In this document: positions 3,105 through 18,107 of the stretch, one piece after another
Numbering within the stretch: position 1 is the stretch's first letter
How the letters are laid out: every line of letters starts with the position of its first letter
Source: an uncultured virus (IMG/VR IMGVR_UViG_2630968639_000002)
Lineage: Duplodnaviria > Heunggongvirae > Uroviricota > Caudoviricetes
Strand: one strand, 5' to 3'
Length of the DNA stretch: 20,000 nucleotides
Virus record (IMG/VR): IMGVR_UViG_2630968639_000002
Location: 53,817-73,816 of that record
Program-made: the position numbers and the translations under genes
The notes under the pieces: generated by a model
The model's input: only the letters and a program-made list of their open reading frames with translations
Told to the model about the DNA's origin: nothing
Databases searched by the model: none

Positions 3105-3491
3105 ATGTCTGATAACAAGATTGAATTTATAGAAAGTCGCTACGCTGCTTTTATCGCAGGGTTGATTGAATCCTCACCTATGAGCCAGGCCCAGATAGCC
3201 AAAACAATTGGGTATAAAAACGCCAACAACCTTTCTTTAATTAAAAGCGGCAAAATTCCTTTGCCTATCGATAAGGTTCGTCCGCTGGCGCTGGCACTGG
3301 GTATTGAGCCAAGTCGTCTTATGATGATGGTGCTGGAAGAACGCCAACCCGAACTCGCAGCATTTTTATACAAAGAAGGCACTGCTCCTCTTAACGAGGA
3401 CGAAAAACAGGTTCTTGCTGCATATAACGAGCGATTCGGTAAAGAGAAAGGCGCATCACAAAAGGTTGTTGAGGCCATAAAGTCTCTATGA
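3105..3491 (+). CDS. XRE/Cro-CI family HTH transcriptional regulator (candidate repressor)
   Basis: SQAQIAKTIGYKNANNLSLIKSGK HTH signature; AAGG RBS; palindromic operator in its promoter. Confidence 0.85.
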   Translation: MSDNKIEFIESRYAAFIAGLIESSPMSQAQIAKTIGYKNANNLSLIKSGKIPLPIDKVRPLALALGIEPSRLMMMVLEERQPELAAFLYKEGTAPLNEDEKQVLAAYNERFGKEKGASQKVVEAIKSL

Positions 3492-4589
3492 AAAATTTAC
3501 ACGAATAAGCTCTGTTGATAGACGATCTCCCTTAAATTTGTGGTCAATTTCGTCTAAATCCGGTTGCTCTACGATTGATGCGATGTACGTCGAGAAACTT
3601 TCTAAGGCGTCTCGCATCTCGTCCATATAATCGTGCCGGTCGTAGACCCGATCTATCCCCTCAAGACTGTGGTTCATGATTTTACGTGATACCTCCTGGC
3701 TTATGCCTAATGCTGGGAAGTAACTACGCGCAGTACGGCGCAAATCTCGGGGTGTAAATGGCTCAAGCTCCATCAGTTCTGGTCGTTCCAGAATACGACG
3801 TAATGCCTGGGCTATTGCCACTTTAGACATAGGAAGGTCTTTCCCGATTTTTTTATTCGAAGGCACGAGCCACTGGCTGTCTTTACCATATTCGAACAAC
3901 TCTTCAATACAAGTGCGCATTAATGAGCTTAAAGGCAGAGAATGCTCACGGGCAGATTTGTTCCTCTTGCCTTGATTCCAAACCCCACGCTTAAGATTGA
4001 ACTCACTTTTTTTAGCCCGCAGTACTTCGTCAGGTCGTCTTGCGGATACAAGACATAGCCTGGCCGCCCATTTTGTACCAGCACACACATTGAAGTAGTC
4101 CCATATATTCCAGAACACCCATACCTCTGCGTCGGTCAGCTTCCGCTCGCGAGGTGTGGGCTTTGCGCCACCGGCAACTTTGTTAAGTGACATATCGTTT
4201 AACGGTGACACGTCTATCATCCCCTGGAAGGCGCACCAGCTAAGGAACTGCTTCATCAGAGAGAAAACGCGGCGGCCCATAACAATTTTGCCATCCAGTA
4301 TTAGTGGGTTGACCAGTTGGTTCACCATGAACCTATTAATGTCACTTACTTTTACATCGGCAATGTGCGGCAAAACATGTATCAAAATACAATGAACAGC
4401 GATCTCTGGCCGACGTCTGGTTATCAGCAGAGATAAGCGAGTGAATAACATGAATGCGTCCGAGAATCTCATGTCATTGCTGACCTGGGAGATCATAACG
4501 GCCTGCATTTGAGATGCTCTTTCGAGATACTCTATCGCCTCTTTTGAGGTGTTCTCCGCAGCGCGTGCTCTGTCAAAGCTATTTTTCAT
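3486..4589 (-). CDS. Tyrosine recombinase / integrase
   Basis: Catalytic motifs ARRPDE (R), RNK (K), RDLRRT (HxxR variant), MNH (H), VY (Y). Confidence 0.9.
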   Translation of the reverse strand: MKNSFDRARAAENTSKEAIEYLERASQMQAVMISQVSNDMRFSDAFMLFTRLSLLITRRRPEIAVHCILIHVLPHIADVKVSDINRFMVNQLVNPLILDGKIVMGRRVFSLMKQFLSWCAFQGMIDVSPLNDMSLNKVAGGAKPTPRERKLTDAEVWVFWNIWDYFNVCAGTKWAARLCLVSARRPDEVLRAKKSEFNLKRGVWNQGKRNKSAREHSLPLSSLMRTCIEELFEYGKDSQWLVPSNKKIGKDLPMSKVAIAQALRRILERPELMELEPFTPRDLRRTARSYFPALGISQEVSRKIMNHSLEGIDRVYDRHDYMDEMRDALESFSTYIASIVEQPDLDEIDHKFKGDRLSTELIRVNFS

Positions 4590-5321: not shown

Positions 5322-6611
5322 ATGGTATGGTCGATTAGGTATCATTCAGTTTCAAAATTAACCAAAGACACTGATAAAATGCCTGTTTTGTTAATCCTCA
5401 TACTTGGGACAGTGATGATTATTTTCTGGGATACCGTCAAGGAAAACGTAGAGGTCATAGGTACACTTGCCACTTCACTTGCATTTTTCGCCACAGCATG
5501 GGCCGCTTACGAGGCAAGGCATAGTGCAAAGGCAGCAATGAGGGCCACTAGGCTGACGGCAGCTTCACTCCTTGAAATGAAAAAAGCCTCTTTTAAGGAA
5601 TGGTACGGCATATTACTTGAACAGCATAATAGATTACTTGAGGATGTTAACAAGACCTTGCAGGATGATAGGGAACTTAATGCAAAACTGGGAACGAATC
5701 TCATCAAGGCTATTTATTACCATGTAACCAAAAACTCCGTTTACATTAAATATATTAACCACATAGTTTTAATTCTTGATTATTTAGATAAAGACTTCTA
5801 TTCGCCGTCATCAGCCGATTATGAAAAGAGAGCTTACATAGAACAGCTGCGCAACAGCATTAGTCCTAATGTAAGCCTGCTGATAGCTACATTCGGCCTT
5901 AATATTGACACTAATAAAACCTATGACGCAAAGAGGCTTTACAGCCTGCTAAGCAAGTATAACTTCTTCGAAGGCCAACTTTTTTTTGAAGAAGCAATAT
6001 CGAAAGTTCATTATTTGGACTCTTATGCTGCTGTGATATTTGATAACGAATACCGAAAAGATGTAGAGTTTTATGTTGAAGAAATGGTTCGAGGTCGTGA
6101 GACCCCTAAAATCGATTCAAGATATCGTCATTTAAGGGCTACGTTCGCAATTCTGTGGTCTTACAACAACCCCTGCCGACAACATTTGCTTCAAAGATTT
6201 AATGACCTACCTATGCATATGCGAAACAGCATTGAGCTGAGGATGGAAAATGCAGCCGATAAAGTAGCTGAGTTCAACTCTTTGTTACTTGGTTTTATAG
6301 GCTGGGAGCTTAGAATCGCAGGTAATAAAGTGAGGGTGATCAAGGATGAAAAACATTTAAAGAGGCTAATAAAACTCAACGATAAGTATCCTATTCCCCC
6401 CCGAGAGAAAGGTATTCTGTTAACCAATGGTTTCACCAATAGATTCGCTGATGAGATTAAAAATAGTCTGTCTATGTATAAGTTAGAAAATGCCTATTTA
6501 GCACTCAACTCTAATCAACACAAAGAAAAGGTGATTGATGAAATTGTTGTTGAAGTTGAGAAAATTGTCGATAAATTTAAAGCAGAACTTGATTCTTTGG
6601 ATTTCAACTAA
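5322..6611 (+). CDS. Membrane-anchored protein resembling the putative phage abortive infection (putAbiC-like) family; true start may be 5379
   Basis: Two N-terminal hydrophobic segments, LLEQHN and YIEQLRNSIS motifs, AT-rich, opposite to backbone; family assignment from memory. Confidence 0.6.
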   Translation: MVWSIRYHSVSKLTKDTDKMPVLLILILGTVMIIFWDTVKENVEVIGTLATSLAFFATAWAAYEARHSAKAAMRATRLTAASLLEMKKASFKEWYGILLEQHNRLLEDVNKTLQDDRELNAKLGTNLIKAIYYHVTKNSVYIKYINHIVLILDYLDKDFYSPSSADYEKRAYIEQLRNSISPNVSLLIATFGLNIDTNKTYDAKRLYSLLSKYNFFEGQLFFEEAISKVHYLDSYAAVIFDNEYRKDVEFYVEEMVRGRETPKIDSRYRHLRATFAILWSYNNPCRQHLLQRFNDLPMHMRNSIELRMENAADKVAEFNSLLLGFIGWELRIAGNKVRVIKDEKHLKRLIKLNDKYPIPPREKGILLTNGFTNRFADEIKNSLSMYKLENAYLALNSNQHKEKVIDEIVVEVEKIVDKFKAELDSLDFN

Positions 6612-6613
6612 GC

Positions 6614-6637
6614 AAAAAGGGGCCGAAGCCCCTTTAA
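6614..6637. terminator. Bidirectional intrinsic terminator ending the tRNA/ncRNA unit and the Abi-like gene
   Basis: Minus strand AAAGGGGC-TTCG-GCCCCTTTTT with a cUUCGg tetraloop. Confidence 0.85.
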
Positions 6638-6710: not shown

Positions 6711-6788
6711 CACAGCGTTGAGCGGTCTGGTTTATGTTAGCGGAGTCTTAATCTGGGTGATTAAAAGGCCAAACCGCTCAACGCTGTG
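6711..6788 (-). ncRNA. Long stem-loop 1 (20-bp stem, 38-nt loop), RNase III-like substrate
   Basis: cacagcgttgagcggtctgg / ccaaaccgctcaacgctgtg; the single mismatch is G-U on the minus strand. Confidence 0.55.
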
Positions 6789-6790
6789 TC

Positions 6791-6877
6791 TGGCGGAGAG
6801 TAATGGAATCGAACCATCATCGCTTGCGCAATGGGACGGTTTTCAAGACCGCTTGAGCACCATGCTCCCTACTCTCC
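6791..6877 (-). tRNA. tRNA-Ser(TGA)
   Basis: GGAGAGT acceptor stem, GCGGT-cTTGAaa-ACCGT anticodon arm, long variable arm, GGTTCGATTCC, encoded CCA. Confidence 0.95.
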
Positions 6878-6881
6878 AGTT

Positions 6882-7005
6882 GTTGTGGTGCCGGGGGCTT
6901 CCCGGTGTCCTTTGGCTGGTTATCCACCGTGGACGGAGCCAATAGTCATCACAAAGGATCAATATAACCATTTCCCCGCGTGCGCTTAGCCGCATTCACC
7001 ACAAC
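6882..7005 (-). ncRNA. Multi-branched structured RNA element with tRNA-like 3' end
   Basis: Closing stem GTTGTGGTG/CACCACAAC; internal hairpins TGCG-gctaag-CGCA and CCGGG-aagcc-CCCGG followed by CACCA. Confidence 0.5.
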
Positions 7006-7089
7006 GAAAAGAGCACTGTATGACGTTTGCACGGACTTACGCTTAAAACAGGGCAGTCTCGGCGGTTCTCAATGCTCTTTCCTGTTGTG
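7000..7089 (-). ncRNA. Long stem-loop 3 (~19-bp stem, ~51-nt loop), RNase III-like substrate
   Basis: Minus strand cacaacaggaaagagcattg / cagtgctcttttcgttgtg with two G-U pairs and one bulge. Confidence 0.55.
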
Positions 7090-7090
7090 T

Positions 7091-7166
7091 TGGTGCCGGT
7101 TAACGGATTCGAACCGCCGACCATTCGCTTACAAGGCGACTGCTCTACCAACTGAGCTAAACCGGC
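7091..7166 (-). tRNA. tRNA-Thr(TGT)
   Basis: 76 nt cloverleaf, anticodon loop CTTGTAA, GGTTCGAATCC, encoded CCA. Confidence 0.95.
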
Positions 7167-7170
7167 AATT

Positions 7171-7257
7171 TGGTGGGGAGTGATGGAGTCGAACCACCCG
7201 AGTCGCAATGACAGTAGATTTACAGTCTACACCGCTACCTCTACGGACTAACTCCCC
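7171..7257 (-). tRNA. tRNA-Tyr(GTA)
   Basis: GTAGA-ctGTAaa-TCTAC anticodon arm, long variable arm, GGTTCGACTCC, encoded CCA. Confidence 0.95.
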
Positions 7258-7262
7258 TAAAT

Positions 7263-7337
7263 TGGCGATGGTGGGTGGATTCGAACCACCGACCAGTTGG
7301 TTAACAGCCAACTGCTCTACCGCTGAGCTACACCATC
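7263..7337 (-). tRNA. tRNA-Asn(GTT)
   Basis: GTTGG-ctGTTaa-CCAAC anticodon arm, GGTTCGAATCC, encoded CCA. Confidence 0.95.
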
Positions 7338-7545
7338 AATTCGGCACTGCCAGTATTTATTACTCAACAGTGCCAATCGCGACGGTTTAGTTTCTGCCAG
7401 GAAACGCACCGCTACTTGCACTTTTCGTTAGTGCCAGACGCTTTCGACTTCGCTCAATAGTAGAAGGCAAAATCTTTAAGTAGATGATGTTTCTGAGGAC
7501 AGCACCTACTTTGTAATTTATACAATGTGATGTATGGAATCATTT

Positions 7546-7609
7546 GTTGTGAAAACAGGCACCAATGGCAACAGTGGTTAAACCTACACAACAATCCTGT
7601 CTTCACAAC
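7546..7609 (-). ncRNA. Stem-loop 5 (14-bp stem, 36-nt loop)
   Basis: gttgtgaaaacagg / cctgtcttcacaac; mismatch is G-U on the minus strand. Confidence 0.5.
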
Positions 7610-7725
7610 GTTGAGGCCACTACTCCGATTGAATGTTTGCCCAACATGTTACATATCAACGCTCGCCGGTATCTCTGTGAATAGAACCTTAGAATTGATA
7701 AAAATGTAATGGCCTCAACGTTGTG
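7604..7725 (-). ncRNA. Long stem-loop 6 (20-bp stem, 82-nt loop), RNase III-like substrate
   Basis: cacaacgttgaggccactac / gtaatggcctcaacgttgtg; mismatch is G-U on the minus strand. Confidence 0.55.
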
Positions 7726-7801
7726 TGCTGGCTAACCATACCAGCCGGGCTACGTCGCCGCTTTTTAACCCAGTATAAACGACATAATTGAACAAAATGA
7801 C

Positions 7802-7880
7802 GTAACAGGATGGGCGGTCAGAGGCTAAGAATCCGGGAGTCATATGGAGTTGAAAATATACCGACCGCCCATTCTGTTAC
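7802..7880 (-). ncRNA. Long stem-loop 7 (18-bp stem, 43-nt loop with two ACTCC motifs on minus strand)
   Basis: gtaacaggatgggcggtc / gaccgcccattctgttac, 17/18 complementary; strand inferred from the operon (the mismatch is A-C on minus). Confidence 0.5.
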
Positions 7881-7886
7881 TTCATC

Positions 7887-7910
7887 GGAGGGAACACTCA
7901 TGTTCCCTCC
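7887..7910. repeat. Perfect 10-bp hairpin
   Basis: GGAGGGAACA-ctca-TGTTCCCTCC; no U-tract on either side. Confidence 0.6.
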
Positions 7911-8069
7911 TGCGTTCTGCAATCACACTCGCTCAGTGTGTCCCATTTCGGTAACGAGGCTGGAAACTGACCTCGCTGGTGTTTGGCTTATTAGGCTACT
8001 GCCAGATAGACTTCTTCGTTTGCACTTGTATTTAAGTTCAAACAGTCGCGTCTCAACGAAAACAAAGTC

Positions 8070-8098
8070 ATCTTATACATAAAAGATAAGTAAGTAAA
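8070..8098 (-). promoter_or_regulatory. Candidate sigma70 promoter of the ncRNA/tRNA unit, -35 inside the 20-bp operator at 8086-8105
   Basis: Minus strand TTTACT-N17-TAAGAT. Confidence 0.55.
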
Positions 8099-8115
8099 TA
8101 CTTATTGTTGTGTTT

Positions 8116-11397: not shown

Positions 11398-11472
11398 ACC
11401 AACTCCTAGCTAACAGATGAAAGTATTCTTACAGAAAGATAAGTAATCATCTACTTATTTTAGCGGCACTTG

Positions 11473-17188: not shown

Positions 17189-17308
17189 ACAATTTGATAA
17201 TGCACACGTAATGGGCTATAGCCTTTTAAAGTAATTTTTGAGTCGAAAACTCAGTTTGAACAGAGGAGATTGATGGCCTTCCTACATCACGGCCATCAGG
17301 AGGAATAC

Positions 17309-17578
17309 ATGTCAGCACTAAAAAAGCAGCGCATCGATTTGAGATTAACCGATGACGATAAAAGCATCATCGAGGAAGCTGCCGCAATGTCTAACCAGAG
17401 CATTACTCAGTTTATGGTTAGCAGTGCATCTGAACGTGCCGTGAAAGTTATAGAGCAACACCGTAGACTAGTTCTGAATGAAGAATCCTGGAATCTGGTT
17501 ATGGACGCTATAAGCAATCCTCCGGCACCGAACGACAAGCTGAAACGAGCTGCTGATCGTCTGAAAAGCATGGAGTAG
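17309..17578 (+). CDS. tacA: DUF1778 RHH antitoxin (TacA/AtaR/KacA family)
   Basis: KKQRIDLRL...IEEAA...SITQF...NPPAPNDKLKRA; AGGAGG RBS before ATG 17309. Confidence 0.9.
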   Translation: MSALKKQRIDLRLTDDDKSIIEEAAAMSNQSITQFMVSSASERAVKVIEQHRRLVLNEESWNLVMDAISNPPAPNDKLKRAADRLKSME

Positions 17579-17585
17579 TTTACTC

Positions 17586-18107
17586 GTGAGCAATACAACG
17601 ATAGAGATTTTCTCTGGAGAGAAAGATTATGATCTAAACGGTTTTGATTGCGGCGAAGAGTCACTAAACGCCTTTTTAGCCAACCACTTAAAAAGGCAGC
17701 ATGAGGGAAAAATTCTTCGTGCTTATGTGCTTTGCACTCAAGAAGAAAGGCCAAAAGTGTTAGGATATTACACTTTGTCAGGTAGTTGTTTTGAAAAGGA
17801 GTCCTTACCTTCAAGAAGCAAACAAAAGAAGGTTCCTTATCGGAATGTTCCAAGTGTTACTTTGGGTAGGCTGGCTTTGGACAAGTCCCTTCAAGGTCAA
17901 GGATTTGGCTCAATGCTTGTAACACATGCAATGCGCGTTGTGTACAATGCATCTCTTGCTGTAGGCATTCATGGACTTTTCGTTGAGGCGTTAAATGACA
18001 AAGCCAAGGCGTTTTATAAAAGTTTAGGCTTTGTCCAGCTGGTTGGTAACAACGAGCGTTCTTTGTTCTATCCTACAAAATCTATCGAAAAATTGTTCGA
18101 AGAATAA
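17586..18107 (+). CDS. tacT: GNAT acetyltransferase toxin (TacT/AtaT/KacT family)
   Basis: FDCG...LN.FL, LGRLA, acetyl-CoA motif QGQGFG, AKAFYKSLGF; follows the antitoxin. Confidence 0.9.
   Translation: MSNTTIEIFSGEKDYDLNGFDCGEESLNAFLANHLKRQHEGKILRAYVLCTQEERPKVLGYYTLSGSCFEKESLPSRSKQKKVPYRNVPSVTLGRLALDKSLQGQGFGSMLVTHAMRVVYNASLAVGIHGLFVEALNDKAKAFYKSLGFVQLVGNNERSLFYPTKSIEKLFEE

What the first reader, a model, noticed from the sequence alone, without database searches (positions are those of the whole stretch)
6711..8098. Array of RNase III-like stems with variable loops, interleaved with tRNAs: candidate processed small-RNA polycistron
Seen: about 1.4 kb without credible protein genes lies between a minus-strand promoter (8070-8098) and a UUCG terminator (6614-6637). 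Besides four tRNAs it holds six long stems (6711-6788, 6882-7005, 7000-7089, 7546-7609, 7604-7725, 7802-7880) of 9-20 bp enclosing unrelated loops of about 36-106 nt. Five are closed by CACA(A/G)C/G(T/C)TGTG. In four of the five imperfect stems the mismatches are G-U on the minus strand, which suggests selection at the RNA level. Established: RNase III cuts ~20-bp stems with UGAG/AGAG-type boxes and releases small RNAs from phage leaders such as the dicBF operon. Inference: this is a conserved processing scaffold carrying interchangeable cargo RNAs that may silence host or competitor genes, organised as a structural array and not a direct-repeat array.
Basis: partly seen in the sequence, partly recalled or inferred. 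Interest (0 to 1): 0.85.

Follow-up and report, generated by a model that had tools for sequence, protein, structure and literature searches.

The report
Phage RNase III small-RNA cassette array
A phage-plasmid carries a non-coding operon that a host enzyme very probably cuts into small folded RNAs, some of them swapped like cassettes between phages, but what those RNAs do is still unknown.

Summary
The stems are real and are under selection as minus-strand RNA. They lie in the tRNA operon of an SSU5-type E. coli phage-plasmid, and they are not six of one kind. Three (7604-7725, 7000-7089, 6711-6788) fit E. coli RNase III site geometry. Related stems in the K-12 prophages Qin, Rac and e14 are cut in vivo at 5 of 6 positions given by that geometry (Altuvia 2018 tables). 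Two (7546-7609, 6882-7005) share GUUGUG with the stem upstream and probably close only after the cut; 6882-7005 is STnc100-like. 7802-7880 is a separate class. Modules are swapped only after tRNA-Asn (19 layouts in 67 loci); one stem family carries 49 loop types across enterobacterial phages. The other loops are fixed orthologues. Gene silencing found no support: no excess complementarity to 41 host RNAs, no Hfq chimeras for homologous pieces in EPEC; mRNA targets barely tested. The scan had noted that RNA and these modules on other DNA; the link to mapped cuts was made here.

The parts
8070..8098 (-). sigma-70-type promoter (-35 TTTACT 8098-8093, -10 TAAGAT 8075-8070); start inferred near 8063; overlaps a palindrome at 8086-8105 that recurs on the contig
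   Evidence: sequence; looser motif in 73 of 77 loci, palindrome copies; not listed by the scanner
8040..8064 (-). 5' arm complementary to host tmRNA nt 81-104, across the resume codon
   Evidence: duplex -25.5 kcal/mol with host versus -10.7 with its own tag; 14 of 500 shuffles as good; arm in 73 of 77 loci; P1 and other tag-bearing phage loci also pair there
7991..8023 (-). tmRNA-like tag frame ANEEVYLAVA-stop; no tRNA-like domain found
   Evidence: weak Rfam tmRNA hits; a 10-codon AN..YLAVA frame in 73 of 77 sequences; ARAGORN finds no tmRNA
7887..7977 (-). tmRNA-like 3' part: candidate pseudoknot 7977-7941, hairpin 7910-7887
   Evidence: read by eye from alignment A2; RNA contig 7941-8021 at depth 570 versus 9-20 beside it in run X1
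7802..7880 (-). S6: long stem with a GGCGGU..ACCGCC core and a C/U-rich loop; resembles DicF/KilS hairpins by eye; not in RNase III register; fixed position
   Evidence: motif in 67 of 77 loci; no DicF Rfam hit
7604..7725 (-). S5: RNase III-type stem; predicted cuts 7718/7717 and 7610/7609, 108-nt loop RNA; fixed orthologous loop
   Evidence: register; 98.4% of cells paired, 4 of 19 pairs changed on both sides in 10 sequences
7546..7609 (-). S4: closing stem starting at the GUUGUG freed by the S5 cut
   Evidence: 6-nt overlap; closing helix kept with variable interior in 19 sequence variants
7338..7545 (-). structured spacer with several hairpins before tRNA-Asn
   Evidence: z -4.0; present with divergence in relatives
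7263..7337 (-). tRNA-Asn(GTT)
7171..7257 (-). tRNA-Tyr(GTA)
7091..7166 (-). tRNA-Thr(TGT)
7000..7089 (-). S3: RNase III stem of the widespread swappable family; predicted cuts 7081/7080 and 7006/7005, 75-nt loop RNA
   Evidence: 5' arm 15/20 and 16/20 identical to the Qin and Rac stems cut in vivo
6882..7005 (-). S2: STnc100/PasD-like multibranch RNA, homologous to the dicF-dicB spacer and the e14 ymfH leader; swappable
   Evidence: Rfam STnc100 41.3 bits, gathering 47; homologues; 5' end matches mapped RNase III sites and read starts
6791..6877 (-). tRNA-Ser(TGA)
6711..6788 (-). S1: RNase III-type stem after the last tRNA; predicted cuts 6781/6780 and 6717/6716, 64-nt loop RNA; fixed position
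   Evidence: two-sided changes at pairs 8 and 12 among 12 arm variants
6614..6637 (-). UUCG intrinsic terminator, probably serving both directions
   Evidence: motif found in 58 of 77 stretches, several of which end before it

Best explanation
One ~1.45-kb non-coding transcript (about 8063 to 6614) is cut by host RNase III at three stems (S5, S3, S1) and, by standard knowledge, by RNase P at the tRNAs. Each double cut frees a 64-108-nt loop RNA closed by a 10-12-bp helix. It also frees the GUUGUG of the 3' arm, which then pairs with a downstream CACAAC and closes the next unit (S4, S2). This explains the 6-nt overlaps and gives products with paired, protected ends. The same two scaffolds (RNase III stem plus a tRNA-shaped 'B' unit) recur across enterobacterial phages with dozens of different inserts. 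They are gained, lost and swapped in the slot after tRNA-Asn, probably by recombination through the repeated arms. Shown: stems, register, module turnover, in vivo cutting of related stems. Inferred: cutting in this phage, the stem switch, stability of the products. Least certain: that inserts are effectors; my best guess is folded mimics or decoys of host RNAs rather than Hfq-type antisense RNAs.
For: S5, S3 and S1 all carry U-G at pair 17, U-A at pair 18, A-U at pair 11 and no G-C at pair 9. These are the distal-box and proximal-box rules of PMC1540722. Chance is 0.8-1.8% per stem in any register. In 109 distinct S3-family stems, pair 18 is U-A in 109, pairs 9 and 11 are never G-C or C-G, and pair 17 is U-G in 74. 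K-12 relatives: e14 cut predicted at 1201383 and then found in the in vivo list. Qin 1649182 and 1649251 were computed and listed. Rac 1418556 and 1418485 fit the same geometry (recognised after seeing them). 8 of 9 molecules from an e14-type homologue start at the base equal to 7005. 19 module layouts in 67 loci. 49 loop clusters among 109 stems and 25 insert clusters among 52 B units. P1 has the same array.
Against: No read-level data for this phage's own operon. In three contig-level RNA runs the modules downstream of 7880 were no deeper than neighbouring genes (5-20 versus 9-16 in X1), and two runs were nearly flat, like DNA. The predicted e14 5'-arm cut (1201414) is not in the list. The 3' arm was part of my search pattern, so its conservation in the viral-scan stems is partly built in. 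No target was found for any insert. The homologous loop and B unit at the EPEC dicF_1 locus gave no Hfq chimeras, while DicF did.
Confidence: 0.78

Rival explanations
1. The stems are only processing punctuation. RNase III cuts and the closing stems shape and stabilise the tRNAs, the tmRNA-like RNA or downstream mRNA; the loops and inserts are near-neutral filler shuffled by recombination.
For: In other phages a single stem-plus-B unit usually sits in a leader (2 or more stems in only 18 of 80 loci); the downstream ORF is a holin in 9 of 25 tested. No targets or Hfq chimeras were found. Low RNA depth over the modules.
Against: S1 follows the last tRNA with no gene behind it. 23 of 67 loci have one tRNA and no swappable unit but keep S1, and S5 and S6 are near-universal. 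S5 loops keep invariant internal motifs across divergent relatives. The same inserts persist in both SSU5-type elements and P1.
Confidence: 0.35
2. The released RNAs are base-pairing regulators or sponges, like DicF or PasD.
For: DicF lies directly behind such a stem in Qin. STnc100-related PasD binds Hfq with targets. The 5' arm pairs with host tmRNA. The S1 and S6 loops are C/U-rich. The S3 loop has a split 14-nt complement to DicF, reached by 0 of 2000 shuffles.
Against: Across 73 insert clusters and 41 host RNAs, antisense and split matches equal the shuffled level; split matches of 14 or more arise about 3 times per shuffled set. The S3-DicF energy gain is only -2.6 kcal/mol. The predicted loop products have no U tail. 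No long antisense match to the K-12 chromosome or to the phage contig.
Confidence: 0.25
3. The stems are DNA-level elements (attC-like cassette sites or cruciforms) that mobilise the inserts.
For: Cassette-like gain and loss between recurring ends. A recombinase-like gene lies at 3486-4589 (the Cyrano counterpart is annotated integrase).
Against: G-U pairs work on one strand only. The conserved pairs are exactly the RNase III boxes. Related stems are cut as RNA in vivo. The ends do not fit the attC cores RYYYAAC/GTTRRRY (consensus recalled, compared by eye).
Confidence: 0.05

Closest known systems
dicBF operon leader of E. coli Qin prophage (RNase III sites flanking DicF; PMC10448788, PMC6212723)
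   Same: Same stem family with the same cut geometry (1649182/1649251), and a spacer homologous to S2 whose 5' end is a mapped RNase III site (1649454).
   Different: One stem and one B unit in a protein-coding operon. There the B unit is excised through its own long stem; here its closing stem is 9 bp. No DicF match here. The window is an all-RNA operon with a swappable slot.
STnc100 (Rfam RF02076) and PasD prophage sRNAs (10.64898/2026.05.13.724894; PMC8550237)
   Same: S2 matches at E 3.5e-7, sharing the 5' GGUGAAU and the 3' hairpin-CACC framework.
   Different: 41.3 bits, below the gathering score of 47; different interior; no own terminator; no evidence of Hfq binding.
T7 early-region RNase III sites (R1.1; PMC1540722)
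   Same: Distal and proximal boxes in the same register.
   Different: T7 sites have tiny loops and separate protein genes; these enclose 38-82-nt structured loops and overlap a second stem.
Phage P1 ban-operon leader (trnA, trnT, annotated 'dicF-like region', plp, upl)
   Same: Same ingredients in the same order: tag-bearing tmRNA-like RNA, RNase III-type stems, tRNAs, alternating stem and B units.
   Different: The record annotates two opposite-strand ORFs over the array and no RNA modules; the transcript continues into tciABC and ban.
tmRNA (SsrA)
   Same: Resume context and 10-codon tag ending in a hydrophobic AVA; candidate pseudoknot.
   Different: No tRNA-like domain found; the 5' arm is antisense to host tmRNA.

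Membership tests
E. coli RNase III stem substrate (S1, S3, S5) | helix of at least 11 bp above the cut, about 20 bp in all | tested here: met
   19-20 pairs each; rule from PMC1540722
E. coli RNase III stem substrate (S1, S3, S5) | distal box U-G then U-A at the 9th and 10th pair from the cut | tested here: met
   3 of 3
E. coli RNase III stem substrate (S1, S3, S5) | no G-C/C-G at proximal box positions 2 and 4 | tested here: met
   3 of 3; 109 of 109 S3-family stems
E. coli RNase III stem substrate (S1, S3, S5) | rnc-dependent cleavage of these very stems | not testable with these tools
   only related K-12 stems have data: 5 of 6 positions listed
E. coli RNase III stem substrate (S2, S4, S6) | boxes in the same register | tested here: not met
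   S2 closes with 9 bp and S4 with 14 bp; S6 is long enough but lacks the canonical distal box, so a cut is not excluded
STnc100 (RF02076) | score at or above gathering threshold 47 | tested here: not met
   41.3 bits, E 3.5e-7: STnc100-like, not filed as a member
DicF (RF00039), for S6 | covariance model match | tested here: not met
   no hit at E<=5
tmRNA | tag reading frame with resume context | tested here: met
   73 of 77 sequences
tmRNA | tRNA-like domain with acceptor stem and CCA | tested here: not met
   ARAGORN finds none in the window or 28 loci; Rfam hits far below gathering
Hfq-dependent base-pairing sRNA | seed with targets and Hfq binding | tested here: inconclusive
   no excess matches to 41 host RNAs; no chimeras for homologous pieces in EPEC; mRNA targets not screened properly
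C4/CI phage antisense RNAs (RNase P-processed) | Rfam C4-type match and cis targets in the phage | tested here: not met
   no C4 hit; longest match elsewhere on the contig 10-12 nt (contig incomplete)
Integron attC cassette array | RYYYAAC/GTTRRRY cores | tested here: not met
   ends are CACAAC/GTTGTG; consensus recalled, compared by eye

The most novel reading that the evidence does not exclude
Enterobacterial phages share a mix-and-match small-RNA cassette system. A constant RNase III stem and a constant tRNA-shaped scaffold with a loop-loop 'elbow' release dozens of different folded RNAs. These act as a variable arsenal of mimics, decoys or antisense RNAs against host RNA machinery and defences, alongside an anti-tmRNA RNA and spare tRNAs. 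It would be an RNA counterpart of phage accessory-gene hotspots.
Probability: 0.4. Interest if true: 0.9.

Novelty: new variant of a known kind. Interest (0 to 1): 0.72.

Why it matters
The dicBF RNase III site has been treated as a single case. Here it is one member of a large phage family whose stems keep the RNase III recognition boxes while the enclosed RNA changes (49 loop types in one capped sample). That gives exact, testable product ends for an unannotated operon on a common E. coli, Klebsiella, Salmonella and Enterobacter phage-plasmid group. It also re-reads the plp/upl region of P1 and defines a pool of over 70 candidate phage small RNAs that gene annotation misses. If the inserts are effectors, this is a new layer of phage-host conflict. 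If not, it is still a neat processing switch.

Tried and rejected
S3 loop as a DicF sponge: striking alone, but no better than chance once 41 host RNAs were tested. General antisense or mimic enrichment among 73 insert clusters: none (sense matches of 12 nt or more were 3 observed against about 1.7 expected). S1 seed search for ribosome-binding-site targets in K-12: 27 hits against 14 for the control pattern, not followed up. A 5'-arm consensus search of K-12 missed the prophage stems and was uninformative. Lambda PreS as an RNase III-released precedent was my recollection; the preprint text has no 'RNase III', so I dropped it. The highly expressed Cyrano gene CYRAN_43 lies outside this operon. 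Slips: one search used a structure off by one column (repeated); the tag pattern was mistyped (counts come); the Qin and Rac pair rows were printed without the bulge and are not used; the ungapped stem finder missed bulged stems (replaced). Raw-read run X17 did not hold this phage. The second EPEC pattern hit (L206) lies in what reads as coding sequence, not a module.

Full report
Setting. The window is part of an SSU5-type phage-plasmid. The region matches E. coli plasmids of about 110 kb at up to 99.9%, Cyrano at 97% and SSU5 at 74%. The laid genome is one 73.8-kb contig with no host chromosome, so host comparisons used K-12 MG1655 records.

Observation. All six stems, the four tRNAs, the promoter-like sequence and the terminator are present, and the stems exceed chance. 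G-U pairs fall on the minus strand in four of five imperfect stems. I number the stems from the terminator: S1 6711-6788, S2 6882-7005, S3 7000-7089, S4 7546-7609, S5 7604-7725, S6 7802-7880. S5/S4 and S3/S2 each share six bases, so the members of a pair compete for one GUUGUG.

Three stems are RNase III sites by geometry. Counting pairs from the base, S5, S3 and S1 each have A-U or U-A at pair 9, A-U at pair 11, U-G at pair 17 and U-A at pair 18. Pertzev and Nicholson (PMC1540722; passages, results part 1 and figure legends part 1 read) give a distal box of UA/UG and G-C antideterminants at proximal box positions 2 and 4. I mapped their pair numbering onto these stems, which puts the cuts after pair 8 on the 5' arm and just before GUUGUG on the 3' arm. 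Permuting each stem's pairs meets the rules in any register 0.8-1.8% of the time. S2, S4 and S6 are not in this register.

Related stems are cut there in vivo. K-12 has relatives in three prophages. I used Altuvia 2018 (PMC6212723; passages, one section and supplement rows read; the file was cut when stored). For e14 I computed 1201383 and then found it listed, with wild-type median 286 and mutant 0; the predicted 5'-arm cut is not listed. For Qin the same rule gave 1649182 and 1649251, both listed as the known sites upstream of DicF. For Rac, 1418556 and 1418485 fit the rule exactly, but I recognised this stem after seeing the numbers. That is 5 of 6 positions. The Qin homologue of S2 also starts at a listed site, 1649454, cut through its own longer stem. 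Separately, 8 of 9 molecules in raw-read run X17 began at the base equal to 7005 and ran on into e14-type sequence.

Covariation. S5: 98.4% of cells are paired and 4 of 19 pairs changed on both sides in 10 chosen sequences; 2 of 500 shuffles reached that count (the sequences are related, so this is not a probability). S1 and S6 arms show two-sided and wobble changes. S4 keeps its closing helix while its interior varies. In 109 S3-family stems, pairs 8, 10 and 14 take alternative Watson-Crick forms. The 3' arm was in my search pattern, so only the 5' arm is a free test for the viral-scan stems.

What is swapped. Of 77 sequences (74 viral loci, SSU5, one Kluyvera contig and the window; L075 was too short and left out), 67 span tRNA-Asn to S1. 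They show 19 layouts; 23 have nothing between the two, and the window's layout occurs twice. A capped scan of viral contigs gave 119 loci and 120 junctions, 114 with a full stem. Pooled with the SSU5-type stems, 109 distinct stems fall into 49 loop clusters; 52 major-type B units fall into 25 insert clusters. B units have a 9-bp closing stem and two small hairpins whose loops are complementary (GCUGAU with AUCAGC or UUCAGC in 47 of 52). Two variants seen change both loops together, which suggests a tRNA-like elbow (inference). In other phages the unit often precedes a holin or early genes (25 ORFs from plus-strand loci only). P1 carries a full array under its plp and upl annotations. S1, S4, S5 and S6 stay in place and diverge; they are not swapped.

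The 5' end. Positions 8064-7887 form a tmRNA-like RNA: a tag frame kept in 73 of 77 sequences with synonymous and conservative changes, no tRNA-like domain, and a 5' arm that pairs with host tmRNA across the resume codon. I saw the tag myself; the arm was a lead from earlier scan notes. Alone the arm is modest (14 of 500 shuffles), but arms of different sequence in P1 and six other tag-bearing phage loci pair with the same host stretch, some of them SSU5-unrelated and one P1-like. In run X1 this piece had depth 570 against 9-20 nearby. Runs X2 and X4 were nearly flat, and contigs cannot show ends or strand.

Function of the cargo. Results here are negative. There is no long antisense match in K-12 or on the phage contig, and no excess of matches to 41 host RNAs. 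In EPEC RIL-seq tables (PMC8550237; passages and supplement rows found by coordinate prefix) chimeras at the dicF_1 locus come from DicF only, not from the homologous loop or B unit. Depth over the modules in X1 was at background, although small folded RNAs are commonly lost in standard libraries (own knowledge). Against pure filler: S1 has nothing to process behind it, the S5 loop keeps invariant motifs across divergent relatives, and the same inserts persist in different phage groups. I put effector function at a little over even odds, with mimic or decoy action ahead of antisense silencing.

Literature. Ten searches returned no listing that describes this array, the stem family or a phage anti-tmRNA RNA. 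None was worded exactly for the array, most results were seen only as listings, and subscription journals are missing. Also read as passages: PMC10448788, PMC5371410 (plus supplement rows), the PreS preprint, the Pas preprint (plus a search of its PMC supplement) and PMC9928086 (plus supplement rows). Supplementary tables of the Pas preprint that I could not see may list these modules among STnc100 hits. Faubladier 1990 and the P1 genome paper were not read.

Verdict. A real, RNA-level, RNase III-punctuated non-coding operon with a swappable slot. The processing chemistry and some parts are known; the modular family appears undescribed, and the function of the inserts is open.

Noticed in passing
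window 8086-8105: Palindrome overlapping the -35 box, with four similar copies elsewhere on the contig (two inside the window, near 11458 and 14892); possible repressor operator.
   Followed up: partly
L080 973-1542 (P1 plp, upl): These two annotated ORFs lie antisense to the stem and B-unit array and may be spurious.
   Followed up: partly
L084, L091, L101, L114: In other phages the tmRNA-like RNA follows the 3' arm of an RNase III-type stem, so the cut could make its 5' end; tags vary (ANDDVVLMAA, ANEEMYLAAA, ANDEQFLAVA).
   Followed up: partly
L107 (B insert): 13-nt identity to host GlmY; another insert has 12 nt identical to RyhB and one loop 13 nt identical to the tmRNA T arm. Not above chance overall, but candidate mimics.
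   Followed up: no
L203, NC_000913.3 1201184 and 1201113: A second e14 stem of similar build, with one extra pair, is cut twice in vivo; e14 thus has stem, B unit, DicF-like hairpin, stem in a row, under the ymfH annotation.
   Followed up: partly
L207 906-1003 (Rac kilS): KilS is a DicF-like hairpin between an RNase III stem and a B unit, the same order as in Qin.
   Followed up: partly
window 5322-6611: 429-aa AT-rich ORF (phrog_18168, unknown function) convergent on the terminator; the slot behind the terminator holds different genes in relatives.
   Followed up: no
window 6791-6877: tRNA-Ser scores best against the tRNA-Sec model, in line with an 8/4 fold noted earlier in the scan.
   Followed up: no
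window 17270-18107: Small ORF plus GNAT acetyltransferase, a likely type II toxin-antitoxin pair.
   Followed up: no
L201 4532-5086 (CYRAN_43): Cyrano gene of unknown function expressed 723-fold above background in LF82 (PMC9928086), just downstream of this operon.
   Followed up: no
L048, L050, L063: The operon is interrupted by unrelated sequence, probably insertions, in these loci.
   Followed up: no
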